NCBI GenBank assembly: GCA_000002445.1
Contig: CH464491.1
Location: 1,312,001 to 1,376,000 of the forward strand
From: Trypanosoma brucei
Lineage: Eukaryota
Reading direction: 5' to 3'
DNA length: 64,000 bases
Shown here: positions 13,455 to 41,985 of the stretch, one piece after another
How positions within the stretch are numbered: the stretch's first letter is position 1
How the letters are laid out: every line of letters starts with the position of its first letter
The notes under the pieces: model-generated
The model's input: the letters and a program-made list of their open reading frames with translations, nothing else
The model's database searches: none
Told to the model about the DNA's origin: nothing
Position numbers and translations under genes: made by a program

Positions 13455-14495
13455 ATGAGGCCAGATTACATGGGTTTCATGTTCCTTACGAGCGGTGTAA
13501 TGTCGTTCAACGCGGGAATCTGGCAACTGCATCGCCGGCGGCAGAAGCGCCGTTTGATGGAAAACCACAAGAATATCCGCAAACCTCCAGTATATGAACT
13601 TCCACCAGGAGATGCCACCATCGACGAGTTTGAATTCCTCCCAGCCGCCTTCGAGGGCACATTTGATAACGAAGGCTCCATGCTTGTGGGCCCGCGTGCT
13701 CTTCCGACTTATAAGGGAGCCTCTTCAAACGAAGAGAGTAACGGGGGATTTCTGGTGGTGACGCCTTTTGAGATTGCCCACACCGGTCAGTTCATAATGG
13801 TGAACCGTGGCTGGGTTCCCATAGACGCCGGAAAGCACAGGACTCTCCTCATGCAGTACGTTGGCGAGGGTTTCACACCGGGTTCAGTGCGTGGCATATT
13901 CCGGCGTGAGGAATACATGTCTGCTTCACTAATTTGGGGACCGAATAAAGACAATGAGGGCCCCGTTGCCGCGGATTTATCGTGGCTGGTCATGCGCCCA
14001 TGGAACATGGCGGTCCACTACTACAAGCGCAGGTGGGGACCTGATCGTGCAGAGGAGTCGGTAGAAAAGCACGGTGCGCGGCATTACTACTTGGAAATGA
14101 TTGAGGACTATTCGGGAGATGACCAGCGAATGGTGCGCGGCCACCCGTGGCCATGGCGACGCAGCGTAGATGAAATAACTTACGTCCACTTACCCCCTTC
14201 TGTGCATACCATGTACATTTTCTTCTGGTTCTCTGTTACTCTGGGGTCTCTCTACGGTATGGGTAAATGCTACAAACGACAGAAGGAACTCTTTGCGCTG
14301 CGCAGGCAAATGACTGCACAGACAACACTGCTGGAACGGAAACGACAAGAGGAAGCGAAAATGTACATGGAGGCAATGAAGGAGGTGGAGCGGTTGAAGA
14401 AGTTGGGAACTGTCGCGGCACCGCGAATTGGGTCACAACCAACTGAACAACAGAAGTCAGATGAAAAGTCTCCCGCCTCAGGGGAGAAGTCGTAA
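13455..14495 (+). CDS. SURF1: SURF1/Shy1 family cytochrome c oxidase assembly protein
   Basis: ATG start. N-terminal TM helix followed by the conserved GIWQLHRRRQK motif (cf. GTWQVQRRKWK in human SURF1). Later VVTPFE...IMVNRGWVP matches the SURF1 VVTPF...ILVNRGFVP block. A second TM helix lies near the C-terminus (MYIFFWFSVTLGSLYG). Confidence 0.88.
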   Translation: MRPDYMGFMFLTSGVMSFNAGIWQLHRRRQKRRLMENHKNIRKPPVYELPPGDATIDEFEFLPAAFEGTFDNEGSMLVGPRALPTYKGASSNEESNGGFLVVTPFEIAHTGQFIMVNRGWVPIDAGKHRTLLMQYVGEGFTPGSVRGIFRREEYMSASLIWGPNKDNEGPVAADLSWLVMRPWNMAVHYYKRRWGPDRAEESVEKHGARHYYLEMIEDYSGDDQRMVRGHPWPWRRSVDEITYVHLPPSVHTMYIFFWFSVTLGSLYGMGKCYKRQKELFALRRQMTAQTTLLERKRQEEAKMYMEAMKEVERLKKLGTVAAPRIGSQPTEQQKSDEKSPASGEKS

Positions 14496-15994
14496 TGGCG
14501 AGATGTGAAGGTCATTCCGGGACGGATTGGACACCCCACGTTGTCATGATGTATGGGTGTTTCAAAAAAAAAAAAAAAGTTGCACCGTGTAACCGCCCAC
14601 TATTGGGAAGTTTGCGTTGGGAACCTTTCTCGTTAATTTATCGTTGTTACTTCACATACATGTATAAGTTGTTTTTTTTAAATTTTCCCCTATCATTTTT
14701 GTTTTTTTTTCTTTGGTCGTTTCGAAGTGAGCACAGATGGTAACTATATAACTCTTAAGATACTGTTTGATGCTCCCTTATTTTGTTGGTATATATATTT
14801 TTTTATTTTTTTTTGCGTGTGTGTGTAATGACATTATTCGCCTGCTAAACTGTGCAGTATTTGCGCCGCGGCACACTGTTCCTCACGTCTCGTGTATCAC
14901 ATGTATCCTCCTTTTTCGTTTTATTGTTGCAGTTCCTTCATGCTCTTTGGTCGCTAAGCGTTTGATAATTAAAAAGTTTCTGGTGTTAGTGCCGTTCTGC
15001 GTACGTGTTGAAAGCCAGAAAATGGCTCCAGCTTCTATCTTTCAGCGCGGTGTGGAGGAGGGGAAAGGAGGAAAGGGGTTGAGTGCTTTTTTTTATTTTT
15101 ATTTTTGCCATATATACCGCACAAGAATAAATGAAACTGTTCCTGGATTCCGTTCCGATGTGCGTTTACTTAAAGTTTACTGTGGAGATTAAAGAGATGA
15201 AAATGTAGTATCTTCCGTTGACTCCGGTGTGAAGCCACAAATACCATAGCGTGGGGCGTGGAAGAATTATGTTGTGGTCAATTAATGTAATTACCCATGT
15301 CGTGGCATGTTTTGGGGATGGACCATTTCACTTTGATTTATATGTAGTCACTTAGTACGTGGAATGTGTGCAATTTTTTGTTGTTGTTTGCCCACCGTTC
15401 GTGTGTCCGCACGACTGAGTTTACAACAAATCCGGGTATCGGGAGAAAACGGAACGGGTGGGTCGCCACCAAAAAGATGGATTTTTTTAAAACAGCTTTT
15501 TCCCCCCCCCCTCGCATATTAAGTGGCAGGAAGTCCGTAATTCAGCTGACATGGTGCAGAGTAGAGATTGTTCCCACTTGTGCCATTTTTCTGTCTTTTT
15601 TTTCCTCGCGTCGGATGAGCGGTGCTCGCCGGTGTCCCAGCGGGTGCTAACCGAGGCATGACCGGAATTAAGTTTTGGCAGTGCTCTTCCGTCTACTCAC
15701 GTAGTGGTCTTTAATCGATGGTGGCGTTGAAGGCGTAACCTCCTCAGGGAAACTCAGCGCCGATGGAAAATTGAAATGTGGCGGCATTCTTCTCATTTTA
15801 CTTGTTAAGGTGGCACGCAAGACAATATGGAATTATATCCATGAGGCAAAGGTTACCGCTGGTGTCGAGTGTATATTCTGGTGGTCCGCATAGTGATAAA
15901 AGTGTGCATATTGGCGTGCATGTACGATATCGTGCACGCGTACGAGACAGGGGGGGGGGGAGAACCGTTATTCACAGCTGTGGACTGTACATTT

Positions 15995-28277: not shown

Positions 28278-29591
28278 ATGAATCGCATACTGTTTGCACT
28301 TGCCATCATCTTTTATTTACCGATTCCCCTCAGCGTCATCAAGGGGAGCTGTAAAGAAATTCCGACCCACCAGCAGCCACAGGCCCCTTACATACCAAAT
28401 ATTCAAAAGCAAACAAAAGAGGTATTGACACCATCGCAACAAGAAGATAAACAGAATTTTTCTCCAACGCTCCACAAAATAGAAAGTGCGCGGCAGTTCC
28501 ACTACGACGACTCAACAAATATCGACGGAAACAAAAGCATTCAGCATCAAACCGCAGTAACAGACGTCAATGACAATAACAGTGCCAACACTTCCAATGA
28601 GGATGAAGAGGAAGATGAAGATGAAGATGATACCGCAGTAACAGACGTCAATGACAATAACAGTGCCAACACTTCCAATGAGGATGAAGAGGAAGATGAA
28701 GATGAAGATGATACCGCAGTAACAGACGTCAATGACAATAACAGTGCCAACACTTCCAATGAGGATGAAGGGGAAGATGAAGATGAAGATGATACCGCAG
28801 TAACAGACGTCAATGACAATAACAGTGCCAACACTTCCAATGAGGATGAAGAGGAAGATGAAGATGAAGATGATACCGCAGTAACAGACGTCAATGACAA
28901 TAACAGTGCCAACACTTCCAATGAGGATGAAGAGGAAGATGAAGATGAAGATGATACCGCAGTAACAGACGTCAATGACAATAACAGTGCCAACACTTCC
29001 AATGAGGATGAAGAGGAAGATGAAGATGAAGATGATACCGCAGTAACAGACGTCAATGACAATAACAGTGCCAACACTTCCAATGAGGATGAAGGGGAAG
29101 ATGAAGATGAAGATGATACCGCAGTAACAGACGTCAATGACAATAACAGTGCCAACACTTCCAATGAGGATGAAGAGGAAGATGAGGATGAAGATGATAC
29201 CGCAGTAACAGACGTCAATGACAATAACAGTGCCAACACTTCCAATGAGGATGAAGAGGAAGATGAGGATGAAGATGATACCGCAGTAACAGACGTCAAT
29301 GACAATAACAGTGCCAACACTTCCAATGAGGATGAAGAGGAAGATGAGGATGAAGATGATACCGCAGTAACAGACGTCAATGACAATAACAGTGCCAACA
29401 CTTCCAATGAGGATGAAGGGAAAGAGGAACTGGAGTTTACCATTGCTCCTTCTCCTGTTTTTTTACCTCCTCCACCGGTAAGTGATGAAAATTCCACTCT
29501 TCTGGATGGGAATGATCTCTCCGTTGACAGGGGTAATTATTGTTCATTGCTATTTTCCTTCGTGTTTGTGTTTCTTACCTTTGTCGTCTAA
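28278..29591 (+). CDS. Secreted/GPI-type acidic tandem-repeat protein: 10.5 copies of the 27-aa unit TAVTDVNDNNSANTSNEDEEEDEDEDD
   Basis: ATG start. The N-terminal hydrophobic signal peptide is MNRILFALAIIFYLPIPLSVIKGSC. The central part is a perfect-to-near-perfect 81-bp tandem array. The C-terminal hydrophobic tail LLFSFVFVFLTFVV is typical of a GPI-anchor signal. Confidence 0.7.
   Translation: MNRILFALAIIFYLPIPLSVIKGSCKEIPTHQQPQAPYIPNIQKQTKEVLTPSQQEDKQNFSPTLHKIESARQFHYDDSTNIDGNKSIQHQTAVTDVNDNNSANTSNEDEEEDEDEDDTAVTDVNDNNSANTSNEDEEEDEDEDDTAVTDVNDNNSANTSNEDEGEDEDEDDTAVTDVNDNNSANTSNEDEEEDEDEDDTAVTDVNDNNSANTSNEDEEEDEDEDDTAVTDVNDNNSANTSNEDEEEDEDEDDTAVTDVNDNNSANTSNEDEGEDEDEDDTAVTDVNDNNSANTSNEDEEEDEDEDDTAVTDVNDNNSANTSNEDEEEDEDEDDTAVTDVNDNNSANTSNEDEEEDEDEDDTAVTDVNDNNSANTSNEDEGKEELEFTIAPSPVFLPPPPVSDENSTLLDGNDLSVDRGNYCSLLFSFVFVFLTFVV
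28551..29419 (+). repeat. 81-bp tandem repeat, 10 full copies plus one partial copy (coding repeats of the acidic protein)
   Basis: The unit accgcagtaacagacgtcaatgacaataacagtgccaacacttccaatgaggatgaagaggaagatgaagatgaagatgat recurs head-to-tail. Only a->g (E/G) and gaagat/gaggat variants distinguish copies. Confidence 0.95.
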
Positions 29592-29697
29592 CGTTTTATT
29601 TTGCTTTCTTAAACCTTAAATATACTTTTCGATTGTAGTTTTAGTGTTGTTTGGTTATATTCTTTTACATAAAAGATTTTGTTCATTTTATTTTTCA

Positions 29698-30023
29698 CCT
29701 TAGCAGTGAATCTACGAAGTCCTCTTTCGCACATTCCACTGATGTGAACCACACCCTCTCGCACATAATTAGTTATTGATTTAATACTGCATATAAATCT
29801 ATTTTATATTTTTTAAATATTTACTGATGCTTTCTACCAGCCTTGAGGCGCATGCAGTCGCCCAAAAATAAGTGGACATCGCAGTAGATTTATTGTGGAG
29901 TGATATCAATAAGCTTGCGCGTGTGTATATGAGACCCGTTTCCTCTCTTCTTTTTAGTGGTGCTCCTATTTTCCTTGTTTTGGTGTTTGTTTTTTCGTGT
30001 GTGTGTGTGTGATGCTGTTGCAT
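29698..30023 (+). repeat. Copy 1 of a ~330-bp low-copy direct repeat (contains a (GT)n microsatellite)
   Basis: Near-identical to 31445..31784. It begins ccttagcagtgaatctacgaagtcctctttcgcacattccactgatgtgaaccacaccctctcgcacataattagttattg and ends ...gtgtgtgtgatgctgttgcat. Confidence 0.9.
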
Positions 30024-30240: not shown

Positions 30241-31059
30241 ATGTTTATCAGTGGGCTGTTCGTGTTGGCCGTGGCTCTGTGCTGCACGAACCCCACAGAT
30301 GGTTGCGACAGCAACTTCACATTGGCTCAAGTGCTGACGCTGTGTCAAATAACAGAACAGCTGAGGGGACTGAAGGAAGTTGTTATGAAAATTGGACCGC
30401 GAGCTGTTGAGGAAGCATTGTTTACTTTGAAGGCGAAGAAACGTAGTGAAGTATCTTTGAGGCGGGCAGAGGAGGCGGCGGAACGGGACCGCAACGCAGG
30501 TTTTGCGGCGGAACGGGCAAGGCTGGCGTATGATAGCGTTTGTGAGGCCGTTGAGTTTGCTGAGTATGCGGCGACAAGCATCGAGGGACGAGCGAGTTCC
30601 CTCCTAGTTATTCAGGAATATTATGTGCCATTCCTGGAAGATGTGATGCTCAGGGTTGGGACGGATGCGGAAGCTGCGGAAGCCCAAGAAGCCGCCATGT
30701 CATGTCTACAAACAAAAAGAAGTGTTTCACCAACGTCACTAAGTGAAGCGGCCTTGGAACTCCGGGTGAGATTAGGGGTCAGAAACTTTAGAGCGTTGAG
30801 GCGCGATCTCCACCGAGCGGCGTTTTGTCTCTATTCGTTGAAAAAGACGGCCGCGAAGATTGCGCTGGCCAGAAGTTCAGTAGAGGAAATAGAGTACCTC
30901 ATAAACGAAGCAGCAAATGAAGCAGAGTGCGTGTCTCCCCCCAAGGGAGGCATACAGGGACAGTTGCCATCGGATGAAAGTGATTCTTCAAATTTGGTCA
31001 CTGTGATTTCGGCCGTCCCGATATGTTGGTTATTGGCCACCATTACGCGTGTTTTGTAA
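30241..31059 (+). CDS. Ala/Glu-rich putative GPI-anchored surface protein (272 aa); GARP/BARP-like composition
   Basis: ATG start. Cleavable signal peptide MFISGLFVLAVALCCTNPTDGCDS. The mature region is Ala/Glu/Arg-rich and helical (RRAEEAAERDRNAGFAAERARLAYDSVCEAVEFAEYAATSIEG). The C-terminal hydrophobic tail AVPICWLLATITRVL is GPI-signal-like. Confidence 0.6.
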   Translation: MFISGLFVLAVALCCTNPTDGCDSNFTLAQVLTLCQITEQLRGLKEVVMKIGPRAVEEALFTLKAKKRSEVSLRRAEEAAERDRNAGFAAERARLAYDSVCEAVEFAEYAATSIEGRASSLLVIQEYYVPFLEDVMLRVGTDAEAAEAQEAAMSCLQTKRSVSPTSLSEAALELRVRLGVRNFRALRRDLHRAAFCLYSLKKTAAKIALARSSVEEIEYLINEAANEAECVSPPKGGIQGQLPSDESDSSNLVTVISAVPICWLLATITRVL

Positions 31060-31444
31060 CGATATGCCCTCACACGCATGCAGAGGGAATAAATCTGCAG
31101 GCGTAGCACCGTCCATGGTGCAGCGACTTGAGTATAAATGAAGTATGAGCGTGTTGTTTTACGTGCGTAACTTTATGTGAAAAATGTGCACGTGGGGCTG
31201 AGGCATGAATGCACGCATGTTTGCCTCGCGTTCACGCAGTAATGATAGTTTTCGACGTGTGTTGACGACACATTGCCCCTTACCTCCTTTTTTATTTTTT
31301 ATTTCACTTGTTAGCGTCATTACATTCGCAAAAACAGATGTGCAAAGTGTTTTTCATGTAAAATCTGTCTGCCTCCCCTTTACTGCCGTAGATACTGCAC
31401 GCTGTGCAATCGTGTTAACACGTGTATGTTCATTTAATTGCTCC

Positions 31445-31784
31445 CCTTAGCAGTGAATCTACGAAGTCCTCTTTCGCACATTCCACTGATGTGAACCACA
31501 CCCTCTCGCACATAATTAGTTATTGATTTAATACTGCATATAAATCTATTTTATATATATTTTAAATATTTACTGATGCTTTCTACCAGCCTTGAGGCGC
31601 ATGCAGTCGCCCAAAAATAAGTGGACATCGCAGTAGATTTATTGTGGAGTGATATCAATAAGCTTGCGCGTGTGTATATGAGACCCGTTTCCTCTCTTCT
31701 TTTTAGTGGTGCTCCTATTTTCCTTGTTTTGGTGTTTGTTTCTTCGTGTGTGTGTGTGTGTGTGTGTGTGTGATGCTGTTGCAT
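31445..31784 (+). repeat. Copy 2 of the ~330-bp direct repeat (longer (GT)n)
   Basis: Aligns base-for-base with 29698..30023 apart from tatattttt/tatatatattt, ttttt/tttct and the (GT) tract length. Sequences diverge immediately after gatgctgttgcat. Confidence 0.9.
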
Positions 31785-33036
31785 TTACTTGTGCCACCAC
31801 AAACTCCCCAGGCTTTTTTAACACTTATTTATTATAACTGTACCGTAAGGAAGGGGATATGGGCCCGCTGTGAAGCTGGTGCAAATGAGTTGGTTGGAAT
31901 GTAACAACGGATGGTCGGGGGAGGGGGCATATTGGATCCCTTCCTGGTCATCGCCAGCACAAACATCCGCCGAAACACCGCGGAAGAGCCATTGCTGAGG
32001 TAAATTAATCGGCGTGAGAAATGTCGTGGCTGCCAATGGGGCTCCATTGGTTTAAGAAGAAAAAAGAAAACACGGAGCGTCAGCTTCACAGAGCACTGTA
32101 AACAAACGCCTTAACCACCACCGGATCCCATGTTACGCTGCATCCATGCATTCTCAAGTGCTGGATGCGTTTGCGTTTGTATTTGTATGTGTGCGCTTCT
32201 CCTTGAAACAGTAAATATTTTACGCATTACATTTGACATTACGCATATTCCCTTTTCATATTCATTGAAAAAAGTGATGACAATATCTTTTATGCAAATA
32301 ATAATGAAATTCCACAACTATCGCTACCGCTTCAGTATTTTTCTTTCTCGTAACTGTTTCAACCTATTTTGTCATTGTATCCAAAAATATACATCACACG
32401 ATTCAGTACCACATCTTACAACATTTAATAGCATCTTCCTGCTTCCGGTTGCCGTTGTTCCCATTCACATTAATTTTATTCACAAACACTTACAAGCACC
32501 TTAACTTCTCTGTTGAAACATTCCCAATACAAAATGTTGTTTCCTTTTCATAAAAATAAAAATTATCAAGGGAAAACATAATAAGGGGTTAAAGTTATGA
32601 AATCAACTATTAATATATGATATAAACGATGGCTCAGTGTTTCCATCAACACGCGTATTCCTGCGACAAATGCTTTCCATATGTAATGTTAATCATCCTG
32701 AGCTTAATAATGGCAAAAAAAATAAATAAAATTAATCAATTCTGGCACAATGGTACGCACTCATTAGTTGTTTATGCTGATTGCACCTCAACTTTGATTC
32801 GGAGTGCACAACTCCATTGGCGTCAGGTTGGGCTGAAAGGACATTTACGACAACTTTTCCTTTCCGTATATTCCGTAACCTCTGTTTTATCATTATTATT
32901 CGTTATTCGTCACTTCTCTTGCCTCGTGCGCAGCTGGTGGAGGTGTGGCACCATTCAGCTCCGCAAAACGTGCAACAGTTAATGCCTTAACAATATTAAC
33001 GTCAAATTTGACGAGGTATTGTTTGACATCATTTTT

Positions 33037-35340
33037 CTAAAACACTTCAACATGCCTGTGGTTTTCATCATCTGCTTTACCATCTGTGAGATCACATCGC
33101 TGCTTGACTCTCATTGGAGTGGCGTCAGGGTGCTGAACATAAATCATTTCCCATCGATACTTCCCCATAACTGCTTTCCAATATTCATCACTTGGATTAG
33201 TGGTTGGATTTAAAAGTTTCTTCAGCATGCCAAGGAATGTTCCTGTCTTCGTATCATGCGATTCAGCAGTTGTGTACTGCAACATCACTATTGTCTTTTG
33301 TTTTCTCTGTTGTTTTTTATCCTCAGCAATTGCATCAGGGTCAACAACAAAGAAGGCATCCAAAACAGGGAAGTTAGGAAGCGCCTAGTATGCCTGAAAG
33401 AGACTTGGGGAACGTGTTATCATGCCACAACCGTCTGTAAAATCGGCAGCGTTGCCAAAGTTCAGGTATCTCTTCTGTACATGCCTCAAGACAGTGATAT
33501 TCTGCGCAACTTCCTGTTCCTCTACTCCCCTTTCGGGAAGTGGCTTGGTCATTTCGGTGATCGTACTCAACACTTTGGGAAATCCAAGTGCTTTTATAGC
33601 ATTGTACTCAAATAAAGCTGGAATTATCTCACGGGTAGGAATAAGCCCCGCCAACTGAGCTAAATTTTGAGCGGTTATTTCAGTTTCTCAATTATTCTCT
33701 TCTTTATGGATTCAGAGTGAGGTACGCATATGTATATCTCACCATTGTTTCTCCCACAGGCACGAACAATCTTCACGAGTTTGTGAGACGCGTCACTTTC
33801 CTTCCATTCGCCTTTGTTACCCACCACGCCAATATAGAGTTCACGTCGCTCATGGGATTTGATGGAATTTATTTCTTTGTCTATGTCGACCTCACGCGTG
33901 ACATACTTTGCTTCATCAAACACATAACGAAGTGAAGGTCCGACAAACTCCACACGGCTCTCATGCATCTCCCACTTTTCCCTCAACCCGACAGGTGTGG
34001 CTCCAGGATACAGCATGGGTCCAATACGTGAGAAGAAAGCCCGCATTTCAGTCATTTCCCAGCAGTTAACAAAGATACGTGTACATCTTTCCCTTTGCTG
34101 GAACCAGCTGTCAAAATTTCTCAAATTGGGTGAACTGATCAAAATGCTTCCCCATTTTGGAGCCACATCTGCCGGTGGCTGCTCGCCTTTGTTGACGAAG
34201 TCATAAATAACATAACCACGTGTATTAGATGATATAACCTTCATAAACGTTATAGCCGCTTCTTTACTGTACTCCCTAACTCTGCCAACGCCACCACCAC
34301 CAGATTTCTCAAATATATATGCGGCTACACCACGGAAGTACGCAACAACAGGCAACTCTTCCGCATCATAATGCAGTAAGTTGTAGAGTATGAAAGAACC
34401 CAAATTCTGAGATTTACCAATCCCAGGATTACCAATGGCAACGTATGATCGTGGAAAATAAAGACATCCCGGTAAAGCACGCTGTGTACGCCATAATTCA
34501 ACTCCACTCCTTACAACTTTCCATACGCGGAGCTCTTCTCTACGGGTGAATATTCTTTTGTTACTTCCGTCGGTAAACTTGGCTTATTATCACCCCATTT
34601 GAGATGTTAGAACCATTGCTTCAACTTCTTCCCTGCGTTCTGGTTTCTTCTCAACAGCTTCCTCAATTTCAGGGACAACATTAAGTTCTTCATCCTTCCA
34701 CATTACATTGCCACCACGCGTTCCATCAACAAACTCCATCCCGAGCAGTTGAGTTCCATTGTCAATTTCAATATGACTCCATTTCGCATTATAAACAGAG
34801 TCGTAAACTCCTGGAAGGTCAGCACCGTCAGCTAGTTAAATATATCGTTCCCCCGCCTTCCTGGCAATGCACCGTACCGTGTCCAACCTTGATGTCGCTG
34901 CGGAGCCAACTTGTTTCCTCATTTGGGCAGTTGCCTTCTCGCCCCACTGCCGCAGGGAGTAAATTCCATTACCGTTTAGATAGTTTATCCAACCTTGTAT
35001 TTCAGGCAACTGCTCACATATCCTTTATCGCTTAAACTGGAGGAGATTCTCTATGTCTTCAAGTAACTCGGCATCCCTAGTGTACCTTCCTGGGTTGGTA
35101 ACACACAAACTCATTGCTACATTCTTCATGTTGTTCGTGTTCAGAAAGAATTGCATCAGAAATTCGTGCAGGCTCATTTTAGCCAACGCCGCATAGTCTT
35201 CCAGAAGCACATCCTCAACCCTACTTTCCATCGTCCAGTTGGTGTCCCCTTCATTTCTCCACCACTTCTTTCTTTTTTTTCCTTGTACGGTCCCTTGGTC
35301 GTCCTTCCGAATTCACCCCACTTACGTTTCGTTCATACAT
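33037..35340 (-). pseudogene. RHS: Retrotransposon hot spot (RHS)-like pseudogene, fragmented by frameshifts/stops
   Basis: A series of minus-strand ORF fragments with coding character sits in different frames (35025..35231, 33675..34403, 33385..33654, 33037..33363). Walker-A P-loop reads AIGNPGIGKSQNLGSFIL across 34390-34450. The N-terminal basic stretch followed by NWTMESRVEDVLLEDYAALA resembles the RHS N-terminus as I recall it. It sits next to an ingi/L1Tc element. Confidence 0.55.
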
Positions 35341-36148
35341 GAAAAAGAGGTATCCGACACTGGCGGTTCAGGTTATCCATTGTGCTTTTCCACTAAATTA
35401 CACAGGATAAGATAGGGTGATGGTACATATTTGCTGAAGTGTAGTGATATCCATGCGCACACCCCGCGCTATCTTTGCAGGGGGTGCATCATATTCGGGC
35501 TTCGCCGCTCAGTGCAGGCACTTGGTGCCGTGGCCAGTTTTTGGTTGACCCGAAAATGGTTGTTGATGCAGCGCCGCATTAAAGTTTCTCCTTTGCTATG
35601 TGGCTGGATGGTGCGGCATCAGGAAAGCGTGCGGGCACGAGCGCCAGCACCAATGAGTTACGCAAGTCAGGTTACGCGCACTGGCTTATTTACCCCTAGC
35701 ATAAAAGTGTGGCGTGACAGAGTTACTAGTGAAAGCGACGATTTGCACCATATCTTGTAAATAGGCGATGGCCTGCGTATCTCAGAGGTGTGAAATGACT
35801 TCTATTCATGGATGTGCTGGTGGCCGCAAGCGTTGAAGCAACCTACTTCTACAGCTCTCATTCTTGTCCTACTCAAAAGACAGGACACCATCCGCTCATC
35901 GTCGAAGGCGTGGTGGAGTACGTCGCTTCCCTCGATCGTTTGTTCTTCGGTGGTGCCAGGGTCCAGTACCCCGTATCATCGGGGGAAGCCAAGAGCTACC
36001 AGTGTTACTCTCTTTTGGAACACTGCTTTGCTTAGACTACGGCATCGTACAGCACAGGGATCAGCAGCGTCTTGCTGGGACACCGTTTTTCGTTTGTCGG
36101 TCCCTGGGCACGTGCCAGCGTGCCATCAGCAGTATCATCCGCACTAAG

Positions 36149-39100
36149 ATGCTGCTGTCCGGTGATGTGGAAGAGAATCCCGGCCCATCATTGCGCGGGG
36201 TGCAGTGGAACTCCGCCGGGCTATCTCAAGGAAAGAGATTAGCACTCCACAAAACCCTTGTTGATGAGCGGATCGCCTTTTGTCTGTTGAGCGAGACAAG
36301 GATGAAACCTGGAGAGGCGGCTTGCTTTAGCGTTGCTGGCTACCAACATTACGGAATAGCTCGTAACTGCAAAGGAGGTCGTGTATCAATACTAGTGAGG
36401 GCGGACCTGCCAGTCGAGACCGGTATGGCCGTTGTTGGTCGCATTGAACAAGTGCATGCAACAATTCACCTTGCACGTGGAGCAGCGCTGACTGTCACGT
36501 CGGCATACATCCCACCAAAACACACCTTCACGGCAACTGACCTAGATACGCTTCTGACGACTGACGGTGCCCAGATCATCGGTGCAGACGCTAACGCACA
36601 CGCGTTGGCATGGGATCGCGCGAGCCCACCAAATACCAAGGGTGAAACCCTCACACAGTGGTGCATTGACAACCAGTTTCTGGTCTGCAACACTGGTGAG
36701 TGCACCAGGTACGCGCGCCACCAAGGGAAGTCCACCCCTGATGTGACACTGTCAAGGAATTGCACAGTGTACACGTGGACATCGCTGTATTCTCCCGATA
36801 GCGATCACCATCACATATTTTTCGACGTTATGGTTGGAGACGACACAGATGCACTGAGTTGCCCGCGGCTTCGAAAGCCCATGTGCGCATGGCTAAAAGC
36901 TGACTGGAGGAATTTCCGTCTCAAGGTTGACGAGTTCTGCAGGAAAATTGGTAGAGAGAAGAACGTCAACACCCTGGAACAGAAATTGAGCTCCGCCATC
37001 CGCATTGCGATGAAGGTCTCCGTCCCCCGTGGCTGCAGAGCAACGCCACCACATTGGACACCTGAGCTCGCGAAACTCGATGAAGAGATCACTGGATGCG
37101 GACCCTCCCACCGAAGGGAAAAGTTGGTAGCCACGCGTAAGCAGATCCTGGACCGTACCACAAAGAAGAGATGGAGCACACTATGCTCCAGACTTGCGGT
37201 GTCAGACCGCTGCAGTTGGCACATTGTCAAGAAGGTATATGCGCCACGACCACTAACCACACAGGCTGTACTTGTAGATAACGCGGCCATCACGGACTAC
37301 CGTCGAGCTGAGAGGTTCAATAAACTGTACTCGTCCCGCGCAAGAAGGCACCCCGACTCACACCCACCGGCACCAATAAAGACGATAGCGAGTGAGTTCA
37401 GTCCAATCACGATGGCTGAACTACGGAGATCGATCAAACTGCTACCGTGTGGATCCGCAGCCGGACCTGATTGCTTATACAACGAGGCGCTACAACATCT
37501 CGGTATAACAGCGCTGAATGTTGTTCTGAGGCTATTCAATGAGAGCCTACGAACGGGAGTCGTGCCACCTGCATGGAAGACTGGTGTTATCATCCCCATC
37601 CTGAAGGCCGGAAAAAAGGAGGAGGACCTCGATTCTTACAGGCCTGTGACGCCCACGAGCTGTCTCTGCAAAGTCATGGAACGCATAATTGCCGCAAGGT
37701 TTAGAGACACTGTTGAGTCCCAGCTGACGCCGCAGAAATCAGGCTTTCGCCCCGGATGCTCAACGCTCGAACAGCTGCTGCACGTCCGCGCTGCCCTCTG
37801 CCGTCCCACGCACCAATCACGTACGGGTGTTGTATTCGTCGACTACGAGAAGGCATTCGTTACTGTAGACCACGACAAAATTGCGAGGGAAATGCACAGA
37901 ATGAAGGTATCACCCCACATTGTGAAGTGGTGCGTATCATTTCTGAGTAACCGAACTGGCAGAGTGAGATTCAAGGAGAAGCTTTCCAGAAGCAGAACAT
38001 TTGAGCGAAGAGTGCCACAGGGAACTGCCCTTGGCCCAATCATGTTCATTATTGTCATGAACTCGTTGAGCCAGCGCCTTGCAGAAGTGCCGTTACTGCA
38101 GCACGGATTCTTTGCAGACGACCTAACGCTACTTGCGAGCCACACAGAGAGGGATGTCATCAACCACACACTACAATGCGGCCTAAACGTGGTGTTACAG
38201 TTGTCAAAAGACTACTTCATGTCTGTCAACGTAGCGAAAACAAAGTGCACACTCTTCGGGTGTATAGAGCGCCACCCCCTTACATTACAACTGGACGGCG
38301 AAAGAATAGGAGCTGACAGAACACCGAAGCTTTTAGGAGTAACATTCCAGTGTCTGCAAGGGATGGCAACACATGCGGCCGAAACGAGACGCAAGATGGA
38401 CTTCAGACTACTGCAGATAGCAGCCATCTCAGCTTCTACATGGGTACCAAGACGACAAGTGCTGAGAACTTTTTATCTAGCGCTCGTACAGGCACACACC
38501 ATGTATGGCATTGAGGTATGGTACTGGGACGCTTCGGAACGAAGTCGCGACCTCCTTGCATCAGCACAACACAAAGCCAGTCGCATCATAGCCGGCATAC
38601 CGCATGGGACGCGCAAAGAGGACTCTCTGCTGGAAGCAAACCTCCTGCCACTCAAGACGACCACTCTTGTGCGCAGCATGAAATTCATGCTGATGTGTGA
38701 GTCACGAGGCGGATGTTTGCGGCGCAGTGCTGAGGAAGTATACCACAGCAAACACCCAGTCAGAGTCTTACATTCCCGCATCATGCGGTCTTATCCCCAC
38801 CTCCGCATTGAGCCACGCGAGCACCCACTAGAGACATCGACGCTCCGCCACAGCTGCCGACCGCTATTTCACACGCAGATAAAGCCTGTGTGCGCTGATG
38901 ACCCTGACGATGTCAAAAGGGAGGCTTCCGAAAAGTGGATTGAACGGCATTTTGTACGGAGGGGGAAGGAGCTACCGCGGCGAGAGCACTACGAATTGTG
39001 GACTGATGGATCCGTGTCCCTCGGTGAGAAGTCCGGAGCAGCTGCCCTGCTCTATAGAAACAACACGCTGATTTGCGCACCCAAAACTGGAGCAGGGGAA

Positions 39101-39223
39101 CTCTCATGCAGTTACAGAGCGGAATGCGTAGCATTAGAGATAGGACTGCAACGGCTGCTGAAATGGCTTCCGGCATACAGAAGCACACCGAGCAGGTTGT
39201 CCATCTTCTCTGACTCGCTGTAA
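36149..39223 (+). CDS. Retroelement ORF segment: 2A peptide + AP endonuclease + reverse transcriptase + N-terminal half of RNase H (ends at in-frame TAA)
   Basis: The ATG at 36149 encodes MLLSGDVEENPGP. The track ORF 35864..39223 is the same frame read through flanking DNA. The stop TAA at 39221-39223 is in frame with the next segment. Confidence 0.85.
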   Translation: MLLSGDVEENPGPSLRGVQWNSAGLSQGKRLALHKTLVDERIAFCLLSETRMKPGEAACFSVAGYQHYGIARNCKGGRVSILVRADLPVETGMAVVGRIEQVHATIHLARGAALTVTSAYIPPKHTFTATDLDTLLTTDGAQIIGADANAHALAWDRASPPNTKGETLTQWCIDNQFLVCNTGECTRYARHQGKSTPDVTLSRNCTVYTWTSLYSPDSDHHHIFFDVMVGDDTDALSCPRLRKPMCAWLKADWRNFRLKVDEFCRKIGREKNVNTLEQKLSSAIRIAMKVSVPRGCRATPPHWTPELAKLDEEITGCGPSHRREKLVATRKQILDRTTKKRWSTLCSRLAVSDRCSWHIVKKVYAPRPLTTQAVLVDNAAITDYRRAERFNKLYSSRARRHPDSHPPAPIKTIASEFSPITMAELRRSIKLLPCGSAAGPDCLYNEALQHLGITALNVVLRLFNESLRTGVVPPAWKTGVIIPILKAGKKEEDLDSYRPVTPTSCLCKVMERIIAARFRDTVESQLTPQKSGFRPGCSTLEQLLHVRAALCRPTHQSRTGVVFVDYEKAFVTVDHDKIAREMHRMKVSPHIVKWCVSFLSNRTGRVRFKEKLSRSRTFERRVPQGTALGPIMFIIVMNSLSQRLAEVPLLQHGFFADDLTLLASHTERDVINHTLQCGLNVVLQLSKDYFMSVNVAKTKCTLFGCIERHPLTLQLDGERIGADRTPKLLGVTFQCLQGMATHAAETRRKMDFRLLQIAAISASTWVPRRQVLRTFYLALVQAHTMYGIEVWYWDASERSRDLLASAQHKASRIIAGIPHGTRKEDSLLEANLLPLKTTTLVRSMKFMLMCESRGGCLRRSAEEVYHSKHPVRVLHSRIMRSYPHLRIEPREHPLETSTLRHSCRPLFHTQIKPVCADDPDDVKREASEKWIERHFVRRGKELPRREHYELWTDGSVSLGEKSGAAALLYRNNTLICAPKTGAGELSCSYRAECVALEIGLQRLLKWLPAYRSTPSRLSIFSDSL

Positions 39224-39679
39224 ATGTTAACAGCACTGCAGACAGGCCCCCTAGCCGTAACGGACCCAATTCTGAGACGACTATGGAGGCTTCTGCTTCA
39301 AGTTCAGAGAAGGAAGGTGCGTATCCGACTGCAATTTGTGTTTGGCCATTGTGGCGTGAAACCGAATGAGGTTTGTGACGAAATGGCCAAAAAGGCCGCA
39401 GATTTACCACAGTTGCGAGACACATGGATCCCCGACATCATTGCTTATGCGAAGCGAGTGCTTAGGTCGGAAGAAGTCCATGAGAACACTCATAGGTTTG
39501 GTATCACGGGCAACCACTTTCCAACAAAACATAGGGAAGAACTGACGAGGGAAGAAGAAACGGCACTGGCACGCTTTCGGGTTGGGTCTTCAAGACACTA
39601 TGGATGGATGTTGCGAAAGATCAACCCGAGTGTAGTGTACCCTCACAGTGCCGATGGTGTAACCCGCAACATGCAGTGA
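39224..39679 (+). CDS. Retroelement ORF segment: C-terminal half of RNase H (same frame as upstream segment, separated only by a TAA nonsense codon)
   Basis: 39224 and 35864 are in the same reading frame. Contains the RNase H C-terminal motif HCGVKPNEVCDEMAKKAADL. Confidence 0.8.
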   Translation: MLTALQTGPLAVTDPILRRLWRLLLQVQRRKVRIRLQFVFGHCGVKPNEVCDEMAKKAADLPQLRDTWIPDIIAYAKRVLRSEEVHENTHRFGITGNHFPTKHREELTREEETALARFRVGSSRHYGWMLRKINPSVVYPHSADGVTRNMQ

Positions 39680-39806
39680 TAGGACCAACAATACAAACAC
39701 AAACAGCCTACCTGTTGCGACACGCACTCTTCAGAGAACCTCCGAACCGACCAAATGTACGGAGTGTGATGCCACATACCAATGCCGCTCGAGTGCTGTA
39801 ACGCAC

Positions 39807-40916
39807 ATGGTAAACAAACATGGCTTTGTGCGAGCTGATGCCCTCCGGAGGATCAAATACGGCGATGCAACACCCGCAGTGGATATCCCCCCGGAGCCCC
39901 CTCCAGTGGTGGCGATCGTTCCTCTACCATCGAGCACACGAGTCCCGATGAGACCGCAGGTGTTTCATTGTACCCTCTGTGCCTCCAAATTCGCAGTGCA
40001 AGGCCGACTATTACACCACCTTAGAACAATACATGGCATAGGCAGCGGTAGTTACCGCGTGAAAAGGGAGCGAGAGAACGAGGACTCAGTGCAAGGAGAT
40101 GGTAGAGCCCCAGCAGCGCCAGCCTCTCAGGATACACGGAAGCTGCCGTTTCAATGTGACCTGTGCGAGGCGAGCTTCGGTACACGCTCTTCCCTGTCAC
40201 TACACAAGAAATTCAAACATAAGAGCATAGTGACGGAGGACGGTACCGTGGTGGTGGTGCAATTCCCTCGTAAGCGTGCCCGTGAGGGAAACGTTGACGT
40301 CCCGGGGAAGGGCGAGGTGCAGTGCGGTGTGTGCCAAAAAGTGCTCAGTTGCAGGGACTCCCTCATCCGACACTGTAAGGCTTTCCACAAAGGTGAGGGA
40401 GTCGAGCTTAAATGCAGCAAAAGCACAAAATTGTGTTCCACGGATTCCCCGCATACAAATGCATCCATGTTGGTGTGCCCGACATGCGGAAGGCAGTGTG
40501 CTAGCAAAACTGGCCTCACCCTACATCAAAAGAAGATGTACGGTATGAAGGTAGAGCGCGCTGTTACCAGCCAACGCGGCGACTGCGAAGAAACGTCGCT
40601 GTACCTGATGAGCTGGCCCGGTTTGAAGGAGTTACGTGTCAGGTTTGCGGTAGAAGGTGTATGTGTGCAGGATGTATGCTTCTCCAAAAGGCTGGCGCAG
40701 TTTCTCATTGCGGTTGAACGGAGCCGGCCGCAGGTGAAGTCCTCACCTAAGGTAACAGTCATACAACCCACTCTCCCTTCTGCAACTTTCCCCCTTATTG
40801 CCGAGTGTGGAGCTTGCAGGAAAGGCACTGGACGCAGGAATAGTCCAGAAACCCTCAGAGACAGAGGGGGTATGCAGTCAACAAGCAACAGAAACAGAAA
40901 GAGGGGGAGAGAATAA
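39807..40916 (+). CDS. Retroelement ORF segment: C2H2 zinc-finger nucleic-acid-binding domain (frameshifted relative to RT/RNase H)
   Basis: Several C2H2 units: CTLCASKFAVQGRLLHHLRTIHG, CDLCEASFGTRSSLSLHKKFKH, CGVCQKVLSCRDSLIRHCKAFH, CPTCGRQCASKTGLTLHQKKMYG. The frame differs from 39224..39679. Confidence 0.8.
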   Translation: MVNKHGFVRADALRRIKYGDATPAVDIPPEPPPVVAIVPLPSSTRVPMRPQVFHCTLCASKFAVQGRLLHHLRTIHGIGSGSYRVKRERENEDSVQGDGRAPAAPASQDTRKLPFQCDLCEASFGTRSSLSLHKKFKHKSIVTEDGTVVVVQFPRKRAREGNVDVPGKGEVQCGVCQKVLSCRDSLIRHCKAFHKGEGVELKCSKSTKLCSTDSPHTNASMLVCPTCGRQCASKTGLTLHQKKMYGMKVERAVTSQRGDCEETSLYLMSWPGLKELRVRFAVEGVCVQDVCFSKRLAQFLIAVERSRPQVKSSPKVTVIQPTLPSATFPLIAECGACRKGTGRRNSPETLRDRGGMQSTSNRNRKRGRE

Positions 40917-41985
40917 TAAACGAATAACAAAAATCAAAACAAAAGGATTGCTAATTGACATCTTTTGGAGAGTCTGGGGTGGGGGGCTTCTCGCCCCATC
41001 TGCTGTATTCCGTTCAAATGCGGAGCTACAAAAAAAAATTATAGAGGGTGTGTTAGGATGAATAAAAAAGGGAGACTCTGCCACAGTCGCCAGACCGATA
41101 GCATCTCAGGGCTCTACGGTGATGGCTGACGGCCGTGCCAGTGGGGGGAAACTCTCCCGAAGGCACGAAGAAAATTTCAAAAAAAAAACTTGCTGTTTCG
41201 ACCAAATGAACTTTGCAGCGACATCCAGAGTGGTGACCGTTGATGCAATCACTGCCCGGAGCTGACATTGCCGGCTACCCATCTCGTGGCCTCCGGGTGC
41301 GGTGCATATGGTGATAGGACTCGGTCGATCGCTTGATTTTTAGTTGGTACGGGGTCGGCTCCGCTGCATGGTGCTGCGCGTATAGAGTTGCTCACGGTGG
41401 AGCCGTTGTTCCTCTTGCGTTGCTGATGGTGACATTTTTCGACCTTTATATTGATGGGTGAAACGATAAGACGAAAAAAAGGTGTTTGTAGCGATTGTAG
41501 TGGTGGCGCTTCTTTTTCCCCCCTATTTTTAACGGGTGTCTAATACATAGTCACTGTTTATGCTACGCTGCACTACTCTCTTCGTGCGGGCGTGAGGCAA
41601 CGTTAAGTTTCTGCTACATATGTATCGCATAGACTGATTAACAAGCTTATCATAACCTATTTATCCCTCCGTTAGAGACTTTCCTATAACGAGGCGTGAT
41701 GTTTCTATATTCTTCATGGCTCTGCAATCACCCTGTGCTATTTTTGCCCCAGATTTGCTAATGCTCACTTCTGGGAAGTATATTCCCCTCGTGGACGACT
41801 CAAATATTTCAAGAGCTGAGGGACACGGTGCTTCAACCCCTGTAACCCTCTTTACCGCTGCGCATATTTATTAATTTAGGATTTCGAGGAGCCCTTGATG
41901 TGGTATGGTATGTGTCCTTGATGTGACTGTTATTCTCATTACATCTTTATTTTCCATGTGTGTCGCAAGAATATAGGTAAAGAAA

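What the first reader, a model, noticed from the sequence alone, without database searches (positions are those of the whole stretch)
33037..35340. Decayed RHS-like pseudogene on the opposite strand, head-to-head with the LINE
Minus-strand ORF fragments in three frames carry a Walker-A P-loop (AIGNPGIGKSQNLGS) and an N-terminal motif (basic stretch then NWTMESRVEDVLLEDYAALA) that I associate with retrotransposon-hot-spot proteins. RHS (pseudo)genes are the preferred landing pads of ingi/RIME. Here the element lies ~750 bp upstream of the RHS 5' end rather than inside it, and in opposite orientation. This is the only minus-strand coding remnant in an otherwise + strand transcription unit.
Basis: partly seen in the sequence, partly recalled or inferred. 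Interest (0 to 1): 0.5.

Follow-up and report, generated by a model that had tools for sequence, protein, structure and literature searches.

The report
Dead RHS6-type pseudogene beside an ingi
This is a real but dead copy of a Trypanosoma brucei retrotransposon-hot-spot (RHS6-type) gene, lying backwards inside a forward-strand gene array next to an old and a younger ingi retroelement; it is an ordinary feature of this well-studied genome.

Summary
The minus strand of 32896-35340 carries a nearly full-length RHS pseudogene. Pfam gives RHSP P-loop E=3.5e-54, RHS_N E=1.4e-13 and DUF7578 E=6e-11. T. brucei RHS6a aligns over aa 39-833 in two reading frames, not three. The lesions are seven stop codons at five sites and one certain frameshift near 33681-33684; no start codon can be assigned. 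The C-terminal domain that defines RHS subfamilies is 88% identical to RHS6a and 36% to the next best, so it is RHS6-type. The first ~170 aa are only about 40% identical to any RHS compared. The Walker A motif GNPGIGKS is intact and the ingi/RIME hot spot after it is empty. The same pseudogene sits at the syntenic locus in T. b. equiperdum. That copy shares four lesion sites, but its central kilobase differs by 9-19% with many synonymous changes, which indicates gene conversion from other RHS copies. A degenerate ingi-like (DIRE-type) fragment, also on the minus strand, fills 35547-35918 and abuts the ingi 5' end. The locus is an inert relic, possibly a minor antisense/siRNA source. Novelty: already known.

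The parts
32896..35340 (-). RHS6-type pseudogene, whole extent. The 3' end is the natural TAA at 32898-32896. The 5' end is uncertain: homology is detectable to 35309, and the nearest upstream ATG is at 35340-35338 in another frame.
   Evidence: tblastn with RHS6a; 141 RHS proteins give hits spanning 32899-35309 and no other credible RHS hit in the window; stop codon read.
35028..35312 (-). N-terminal segment with a basic stretch, the NWTMESRVEDVLL motif and a DUF7578 domain. It is closed upstream by TGA 35315-35313 and downstream by the premature TAA 35027-35025.
   Evidence: Pfam PF24466 E=5.9e-11; only about 40% identical to RHS6a, RHS1 and the other RHS compared.
34593..34835 (-). RHS_N domain segment, bounded by the premature TAA 34838-34836 and the triple stop TGA TAA TAA at 34592-34584, which replaces the conserved WPY.
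   Evidence: Pfam PF20445 E=1.4e-13; alignment.
33678..34583 (-). Central RHSP P-loop domain, an open 302-codon stretch. Walker A GNPGIGKS is at 34433-34410. The ingi/RIME hot-spot position, about five codons later near 34395, is unoccupied.
   Evidence: Pfam PF07999 E=3.5e-54; 89% identical to RHS6a aa 272-570 with no gap; hot-spot position from PMC7563717.
33681..33684 (-). Frameshift. The two tblastn segments for consecutive RHS6a residues 570 and 571 overlap by 4 nt, a net loss that is not a multiple of three where RHS6a has 'IC'.
   Evidence: the same shift is present in the T. b. equiperdum ortholog.
32899..33684 (-). RHS6-specific C-terminal domain in the second reading frame. It carries premature TAG 33387-33385 (Lys in RHS6a) and TAG 33039-33037 (Trp in RHS6a).
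   Evidence: 88% identical to RHS6a aa 571-833 against 36% to the next best RHS; both stops are absent from the T. b. equiperdum ortholog.
35547..35918 (-). Degenerate ingi-related (DIRE-type) endonuclease fragment, in the same orientation as the RHS pseudogene and truncated where the plus-strand ingi begins.
   Evidence: tblastn with the neighbouring ingi ORF: aa 128-274, 31% identity, E=4e-10; 53.5 bits against at most 23.5 bits in 300 dinucleotide shuffles; no Pfam hit.
35919..41189 (+). ingi LINE of about 5.27 kb with a Pr77-like 5' end, 2A-like DVEENPGP (36164-36187), endonuclease, RT, RNase H and C2H2 zinc-finger regions, and an A-run at 41179-41189. The ORF is broken into at least three pieces.
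   Evidence: Pfam Exo_endo_phos_2, RVT_1, RNase_H and zf-C2H2; Pr77 alignment at 35950-35996 (PMC1874656); sequence; no target-site duplication found.

Best explanation
The region is a non-functional relic: an almost full-length retrotransposon-hot-spot pseudogene of the RHS6 subfamily in Trypanosoma brucei. It lies antisense inside a plus-strand polycistronic unit in the chromosome core. It belongs to a small island of repeated elements made of the RHS pseudogene, a degenerate ingi-like fragment and a younger ingi.

Shown here:
- It cannot encode an RHS protein. It has seven in-frame stops at five sites, at least one frameshift and no assignable start.
- It was already dead in the common ancestor of this strain and T. 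b. equiperdum, since four lesion sites are shared.
- It has kept decaying. Two further stops are private to the window, and two frameshifting 2-bp indels and one stop are private to the other strain.
- Its unconverted flanks change mostly by non-synonymous substitutions.

Inferred:
- Its central P-loop kilobase has been overwritten in patches by ectopic gene conversion from other RHS genes. This explains why that part is still an open 302-codon stretch 89% identical to RHS6a, while the two orthologous alleles differ by 9-19% there.
- The plus-strand ingi later inserted at the edge of the older minus-strand DIRE-like fragment rather than at the RHS hot spot, which is intact and empty.
- The only likely activity is a by-product. 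Read-through Pol II transcription of the plus-strand unit would produce RNA antisense to RHS6 and could feed the known ingi/RHS siRNA pool.
For: Family and subfamily:
- Pfam RHSP, RHS_N and DUF7578 hit strongly.
- RHS6a aligns over aa 39-833.
- The C-terminal domain is 88% identical to RHS6a and 36% to the next best RHS. Subfamilies are defined by the C-terminus (PMC6393297; PMC7563717).

Lesions.

Organism and synteny:
- The neighbouring GARP-like protein is 99% identical to a T. b. equiperdum protein.
- Locus L001 is collinear at 96-99% identity from window position 19684 to 40989.

Shared and private lesions.

Neutral decay against imported divergence:
- The flanks differ at 5 synonymous and 25 non-synonymous single-change codons.
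- The central 346 codons differ at 37 synonymous, 39 non-synonymous and 32 multi-change codons.
- Mosaic affinities: at RHS6a aa 441-480 the window matches RHS6a 38/40 and the ortholog matches P0003 37/40. At aa 361-400 the window matches P0003 38/40.

Other points:
- The hot spot is empty: the alignment through the P-loop region is ungapped.
- DIRE-like fragment.
- Literature: 78 of 118 annotated RHS genes in TREU927 are pseudogenes. ingi/RHS sequences give about 52% of AGO1-bound small RNAs (PMC3447711). RHS pseudogenes form trans antisense pairs that yield siRNAs (PMC3683921).
Against: - No expression data can be consulted here, so neither silence nor antisense transcription is shown.
- The direction and donors of the conversion tracts are inferred from only two alleles and two reference proteins.
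- The first ~170 aa match no compared RHS at more than about 42%. Whether the gene was chimeric from the start or merely old is open; the last protein search found nothing, but that index also missed RHS6a for the central query.
- No target-site duplication was found for the ingi, so the order of insertion events is inferred only from the truncation of the DIRE-like fragment at the ingi boundary.
Confidence: 0.88

Rival explanations
1. The pseudogene is kept as a regulatory antisense locus. Because it lies backwards in a constitutively transcribed Pol II unit, it supplies RNA antisense to the essential single-copy RHS6 gene. That RNA pairs with RHS6 mRNA and is diced into siRNAs that tune RHS6 or RHS-family expression.
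For: - The orientation is antisense to a plus-strand unit.
- The nucleotide sequence is close to RHS6: published RHS6 primers match with 0, 1, 2 and 3 mismatches over 20-26 nt.
- The literature reports pseudogene-derived and trans-NAT siRNAs from RHS pseudogenes, and RHS transcripts rise when RNAi is ablated.
- The locus is retained at the same position in T. b. equiperdum.
Against: - Retention between two members of one species complex is expected by descent alone.
- The flanks change mostly non-synonymously and acquire private stops and indels, as neutral DNA would.
- In the small-RNA survey, siRNAs mainly target RHS3, RHS4, RHS1 and RHS5; RHS6 is not among the named main targets.
- Any antisense-oriented repeat in a polycistronic unit would yield such RNA without selection.
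Confidence: 0.08
2. The fragments belong to a different P-loop NTPase family, or are chance ORFs, and the RHS resemblance is superficial.
For: The N-terminal 170 aa are poorly conserved, at about 40% to any RHS.
Against: - Three RHS-specific Pfam families hit in the correct order.
- The region is 88-89% identical to RHS6a over 560 aa.
- The best 25 of 127 library hits at E<=0.001 score E<1e-30. All eight hits whose names were looked up are trypanosome RHS proteins, two of them deposited as 'hypothetical protein' but named RHS in another source.
Confidence: 0.01
3. The central 302-codon open stretch (or the 242-aa ORF 33675-34403) is an expressed, truncated P-loop protein rather than dead sequence.
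For: It is an unusually long open stretch with an intact Walker A motif, 89% identical to RHS6a.
Against: - The first ATG in this frame lies after the P-loop (sequence).
- The stretch is on the antisense strand of the unit with no evident promoter.
- The orthologous stretch in T. b. equiperdum is broken by a private 2-bp insertion at the position of 34201 and contains a stop, so the ORF is not conserved.
- Its openness is explained by recent gene conversion from intact paralogues.
Confidence: 0.03

Closest known systems
RHS6 / RHS6a of Trypanosoma brucei (AAL14357.1; Bringaud et al. 2002; studied functionally in PMC6393297)
   Same: The domain order is the same (DUF7578, RHS_N, RHSP P-loop, RHS6 C-terminal domain). 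Identity is 88-89% over aa 272-833, the Walker A motif is identical, and the natural stop is at the same position.
   Different: It is broken by seven stops and at least one frameshift. The first ~170 aa are only about 40% identical. It sits in a chromosome-core polycistronic unit on the antisense strand, not in a subtelomeric RHS cluster. RHS6 was described as the single annotated member of its subfamily, so this is a dead second copy.
Typical T. brucei RHS pseudogenes (78 of 118 annotated RHS in TREU927)
   Same: It is a dead member of the same family, physically associated with ingi and DIRE retroelements, and mosaic through recombination with paralogues.
   Different: The classic cause of death is a RIME or ingi inserted in the hot spot five codons after the P-loop. 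Here that site is empty. Inactivation is by point stops and a small indel, and the retroelements lie upstream of the gene.
P0003/P0129, RHS proteins of T. brucei TREU927 chromosome 2 (XP_951477.1, XP_951494.1)
   Same: The central P-loop region is 87% identical. Patches of the window and of the T. b. equiperdum allele match this type better than they match RHS6a.
   Different: The C-terminal domain is only 36% identical, so it belongs to a different subfamily.
DIRE (degenerate ingi/L1Tc-related elements) of trypanosomatids
   Same: The 35547-35918 fragment is a highly decayed ingi-like coding remnant, 31% identical to the ingi endonuclease and carrying in-frame stops.
   Different: It covers only about 147 codons. 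It lacks the Pr77 5' signature reported for full-length DIREs because it is truncated at the ingi junction.

Membership tests
RHS (retrotransposon hot spot) protein family | RHSP P-loop domain (Pfam PF07999) with an ATP/GTP-binding Walker A motif | tested here: met
   PF07999 E=3.5e-54 covering profile positions 1-258 of 312; GNPGIGKS at 34433-34410.
RHS (retrotransposon hot spot) protein family | RHS N-terminal domain (PF20445) upstream of the P-loop domain | tested here: met
   PF20445 E=1.4e-13 at 34835-34593; DUF7578 E=5.9e-11 further upstream.
RHS (retrotransposon hot spot) protein family | Hot spot for RIME/ingi insertion about five codons downstream of the P-loop motif | tested here: inconclusive
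   The position is present and uninterrupted, with an ungapped alignment to RHS6a. No element is inserted there. Whether the site is still a competent target cannot be judged without the insertion-site consensus.
RHS (retrotransposon hot spot) protein family | Location in subtelomeric RHS clusters | tested here: not met
   It is flanked on both sides by plus-strand housekeeping-type genes (DNA polymerase A family, aldo-keto reductase, BCDHK-like kinase, ANTH protein). No other RHS copy occurs in the 64 kb. This location is typical of the family but not obligatory.
RHS6 subfamily | Subfamily-specific C-terminal domain (subfamilies are defined by C-terminal similarity) | tested here: met
   88% identity over 263 aa to RHS6a aa 571-833; the next best RHS is 36%. 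RHS6 primers from PMC6393297 match with 0-3 mismatches.
Pseudogene | Disrupted reading frame that is not conserved as an ORF in orthologues and evolves without purifying selection | tested here: met
   Seven stops and at least one frameshift. The ortholog has different additional lesions. The flanks show 5 synonymous against 25 non-synonymous differences.
Pseudogene | No protein product or sense mRNA | not testable with these tools
   No transcriptome or proteome data are accessible here.
ingi LINE (the neighbouring element) | About 5.25 kb, Pr77-like 5' end, APE-RT-RNase H-zinc finger coding capacity, 3' A-run, 12-bp target-site duplication | tested here: inconclusive
   Size of about 5.27 kb, the domains, a Pr77-like motif and an A-run are met. 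No target-site duplication was found. The Pr77 alignment score is only modestly above the window background (45 against 38).
DIRE (degenerate ingi-related element) | Degenerate ingi/L1Tc-related coding remnant; full-length copies start with the Pr77 signature | tested here: inconclusive
   The coding remnant is significant (E=4e-10; 53.5 bits against at most 23.5 in shuffles). The fragment is 5'-truncated, so the Pr77 signature cannot be present.

The most novel reading that the evidence does not exclude
A core-chromosome, antisense-oriented RHS6 pseudogene is kept partly 'fresh' by gene conversion. [quoted passage not shown] RHS6 is a factor tied to Pol II elongation and DNA replication.
Probability: 0.07. 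Interest if true: 0.5.

Novelty: already known. Interest (0 to 1): 0.15.

Why it matters
It matters little beyond annotation. RHS pseudogenes and their association with ingi and DIRE elements are a textbook feature of T. brucei genomes.

Three modest points of use follow.

- This is a second, dead RHS6-type locus, although RHS6 is treated as a single-member subfamily. Published RHS6 RNAi and tagging primers match it with 0-3 mismatches, which matters for the specificity of such experiments and for read mapping.
- The comparison of two strains gives a clean example of patchy gene conversion reaching a pseudogene in the chromosome core.
- The empty hot spot, with retroelements piled up just upstream, shows that ingi association with RHS is not limited to the canonical site.

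Tried and rejected
- The word-indexed protein search with the central ORF returned only a 223-aa T. equiperdum fragment and missed RHS6a. The same search with the N-terminal 228 aa returned nothing. Both negatives are uninformative because the index demonstrably misses close trypanosome relatives.
- Exact-sequence look-ups of five window proteins found no record. The window's own strain could therefore not be identified, and no third allele of the locus could be fetched.
- Bringaud et al. 2002 could not be read. The hot-spot position and the subfamily definition are taken second-hand from PMC7563717 and PMC6393297.
- Pfam does not detect the DIRE-like fragment; it rests on tblastn plus a shuffle control.
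- The search for an ingi target-site duplication found only 8-9-nt chance matches.
- Rejected: a different P-loop family, sequencing or assembly artefact (lesions recur in an independent assembly), and 'three frames' (two suffice).

Full report
**What is there**

Translating the minus strand of 32900-35500 shows that nearly all long open stretches fall in two frames. One frame runs from 35312 to 33678 and is interrupted by stops. The other runs from 33687 to 32899.

Pfam scans of these stretches give three RHS-specific families in the order expected for an RHS protein:
- DUF7578 at 35312-35028, E=5.9e-11.
- RHS_N at 34835-34593, E=1.4e-13.
- The RHSP P-loop domain at 34583-33678, E=3.5e-54, covering profile positions 1-258 of 312.

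AIGNPGIGKSQNLGS lies at 34439-34395 and NWTMESRVEDVLLEDYAALA near 35240-35181.

**Frameshift-aware comparison**

An exhaustive HMMER search of 1.84 billion representative proteins with the 302-aa central stretch found 127 proteins at E<=0.001. The best two were P0002 (89% identity) and P0003 (87%).

Cluster look-up names P0002 as RHS6a of Trypanosoma brucei (AAL14357.1, 833 aa). P0003 is an RHS protein of T. b. brucei TREU927. All eight hits looked up are trypanosome RHS proteins, including RHS1 and T. vivax and T. conorhini RHS.

tblastn of RHS6a against the window gives exactly two segments:
- aa 39-570 maps to 35255-33681 at 67% identity overall, and 89% from aa 272 onward.
- aa 571-833 maps to 33684-32899 at 88% identity.

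**Lesions**

The lesions relative to RHS6a are:
- TAA at 35027-35025.
- TAA at 34838-34836.
- Three consecutive stops, TGA TAA TAA, at 34592-34584, where RHS6a has WPY.
- A frameshift at 33684-33681. The two segments overlap by 4 nt where RHS6a has 'IC'.
- TAG at 33387-33385, a Lys codon in RHS6a.
- TAG at 33039-33037, a Trp codon in RHS6a.

That makes seven stop codons at five sites and one certain frameshift.

The start cannot be assigned. The main frame is closed by TGA at 35315-35313 and has no upstream ATG. The ATG at 35340-35338 is in the other frame and would need a shift, for example in the A8 run at 35280-35273.

With all 141 RHS proteins collected, homology spans 32899-35309. No other RHS fragment exists in the 64 kb.

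**Subfamily**

RHS subfamilies are defined by their C-terminal domains (PMC6393297; PMC7563717). The C-terminal 263 aa are 88% identical to RHS6a and only 36% to the next best protein, so this is an RHS6-type pseudogene.

Primers published for RHS6 RNAi and tagging map to it with 0, 1, 2 and 3 mismatches.

The first ~170 aa are only about 40% identical to RHS6a, RHS1 or any other RHS in hand. A further search with that part found nothing, but that index is demonstrably incomplete for trypanosome proteins.

**Hot spot**

According to PMC7563717, the ingi/RIME insertion hot spot lies five codons downstream of the ATP/GTP-binding motif. The alignment to RHS6a through this region is ungapped. The hot spot is therefore unoccupied, and the gene was not killed by the classic insertion.

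**Organism and context**

The neighbouring ORF 30241-31059 is a GARP-family protein. It is 99% identical to a T. brucei equiperdum protein.

The contig encoding that protein (L001, QSBY01000015.1) is collinear with the window from 19684 to 40989 at 96-99% identity. The window is therefore T. brucei sensu lato, and the arrangement is not an assembly artefact.

All credible genes in the window are on the plus strand. GC skew is clearly negative only across 32-36 kb.

The LINE has these features:
- Endonuclease, RT, RNase H and C2H2 zinc-finger domains.
- A 2A-like DVEENPGP at 36164-36187 and an A-run at 41179-41189.
- A 5' motif, GTGGTGCCAGGGTCCAGTAC, matching positions 26-45 of the L1Tc Pr77 sequence printed in PMC1874656.

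These place its 5' end at about 35919-35925 and its length at about 5.27 kb, as expected for ingi. Its ORF is broken into at least three pieces. No target-site duplication was found.

**A second minus-strand relic**

tblastn with the ingi ORF finds a minus-strand match at 35918-35547 to aa 128-274, the endonuclease region. Identity is 31%, E=4e-10, and the match contains in-frame stops.

The real sequence scores 53.5 bits, against at most 23.5 bits for 300 dinucleotide-preserving shuffles. Pfam does not detect it.

This is a degenerate ingi-related (DIRE-type) fragment in the same orientation as the RHS pseudogene. It ends where the plus-strand ingi begins. The simplest reading is that the younger ingi inserted at or into the older element.

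The '750 bp' spacer is about 580 bp, of which 372 bp are this fragment.

**Evolution of the pseudogene**

The T. b. equiperdum ortholog shares four lesion sites with the window:
- The two N-terminal TAA stops.
- The triple stop.
- The 33681 frameshift.

It lacks the TAG stops at 33387 and 33039. It has its own lesions: a 2-bp insertion at the position of 34201, a 2-bp deletion at 33489, and a stop in 'VMLQ*TTAES'. The gene was therefore already dead in the common ancestor and keeps decaying independently.

Nucleotide identity between the two alleles is 97-99.5% in the flanks but only 81-91% across 33800-34800. The type of difference also changes:
- In the flanks, single-change codons split 5 synonymous to 25 non-synonymous, as expected for unconstrained drift.
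- In the central 346 codons there are 37 synonymous, 39 non-synonymous and 32 multi-change codons. This pattern is typical of divergence between functional paralogues.

Segment by segment the two alleles switch affinity:
- At RHS6a aa 441-480 the window matches RHS6a 38/40, while the ortholog matches P0003 37/40.
- At aa 361-400 the window matches P0003 38/40.
- At aa 201-240 the ortholog matches RHS6a 37/40, while the window matches 27/40.

I infer patchy ectopic gene conversion from other RHS copies after the two lineages split. This also explains why the P-loop domain is still an open 302-codon stretch. Recombination among RHS variants is a known property of the family.

**How it works**

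The best-supported answer is that it does nothing as a gene. It is a relic in a small RHS/DIRE/ingi island inside a Pol II unit.

Because it is antisense to the unit, read-through transcription would generate RNA antisense to RHS6. The literature bears on this as follows:
- ingi/RHS sequences provide about half of AGO1-bound small RNAs (PMC3447711).
- RHS pseudogenes form trans antisense pairs that yield siRNAs (PMC3683921).
- ingi siRNA loci are enriched in H3.V (PMC4721609).
- The same survey lists RHS3, RHS4, RHS1 and RHS5, not RHS6, as the main siRNA targets.

Nothing in the sequence indicates selection for such a role. I rate a regulatory function as unlikely, at about 0.08.

**Novelty**

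RHS pseudogenes are well characterised. 78 of the 118 annotated RHS genes in TREU927 are pseudogenes, and their association with ingi and DIRE is well known. This locus is almost certainly already annotated in reference T. brucei genomes, although I could not check that with the tools at hand.

The finding is correct but ordinary. The small additions are:
- The RHS6 assignment.
- The exact lesion catalogue.
- The corrected boundaries.
- The DIRE-like fragment.
- The gene-conversion mosaic.

Noticed in passing
window 35547-35918 (minus strand): A degenerate ingi-like endonuclease fragment (DIRE-type), 31% identical to aa 128-274 of the adjacent ingi ORF.
   Followed up: yes
window 33800-34840 vs L001 about 13560-14600: The central kilobase of the pseudogene differs by 9-19% from the T. 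b. equiperdum ortholog, while the flanks differ by 1-3%. The synonymous to non-synonymous ratio is about 1:1 there against 1:5 in the flanks, a signature of patchy gene conversion from functional RHS paralogues.
   Followed up: yes
window 34584-34592 (minus strand): Three consecutive in-frame stop codons (TGA TAA TAA) replace the conserved WPY of RHS proteins, inside a short stretch that is locally much more diverged than its surroundings. The T. b. equiperdum copy has them too. Their origin is unexplained.
   Followed up: partly
window 35810/35811 vs L001 about 15571-15643: A 73-bp insertion/deletion difference between the two strains lies inside the DIRE-like fragment, about 110 bp from the ingi 5' end.
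   Followed up: partly
window 28384-29574: The repeat finder reports 12 overlapping 300-nt copies at 81-bp spacing, that is a tandem array of 81-bp (27-codon) units, inside ORF 28278-29591, which has no Pfam match. The corresponding called gene in T. b. equiperdum is shorter (248 aa against 437 aa), so the copy number appears to vary.
   Followed up: no
window 29680-30011 and 31427-31760: A block of about 330 bp (96% identical) is duplicated, once after the repeat-containing ORF and once after the GARP-like ORF. It ends in (TG)n runs. It is probably a shared 3' UTR or intergenic module left by a local duplication.
   Followed up: no
window 30241-31059: A single GARP/BARP-family surface-protein gene (Pfam PF16731, E=1.6e-56) sits immediately beside the RHS/DIRE/ingi island.
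   Followed up: partly
window 35919-41189: The ingi is itself degenerate. Its ORF is split into at least three pieces (35864-39223, 39224-39679, 39807-40916), and the breakpoints differ in T. b. equiperdum. It has a 2A-like DVEENPGP at 36164-36187. No target-site duplication was detectable.
   Followed up: partly
window 32904-33338: The RHS6 RNAi primer pair published in PMC6393297 matches the pseudogene with 0 and 1 mismatches. That RNAi fragment, and probably RHS6 read mapping, would therefore also hit this locus.
   Followed up: partly
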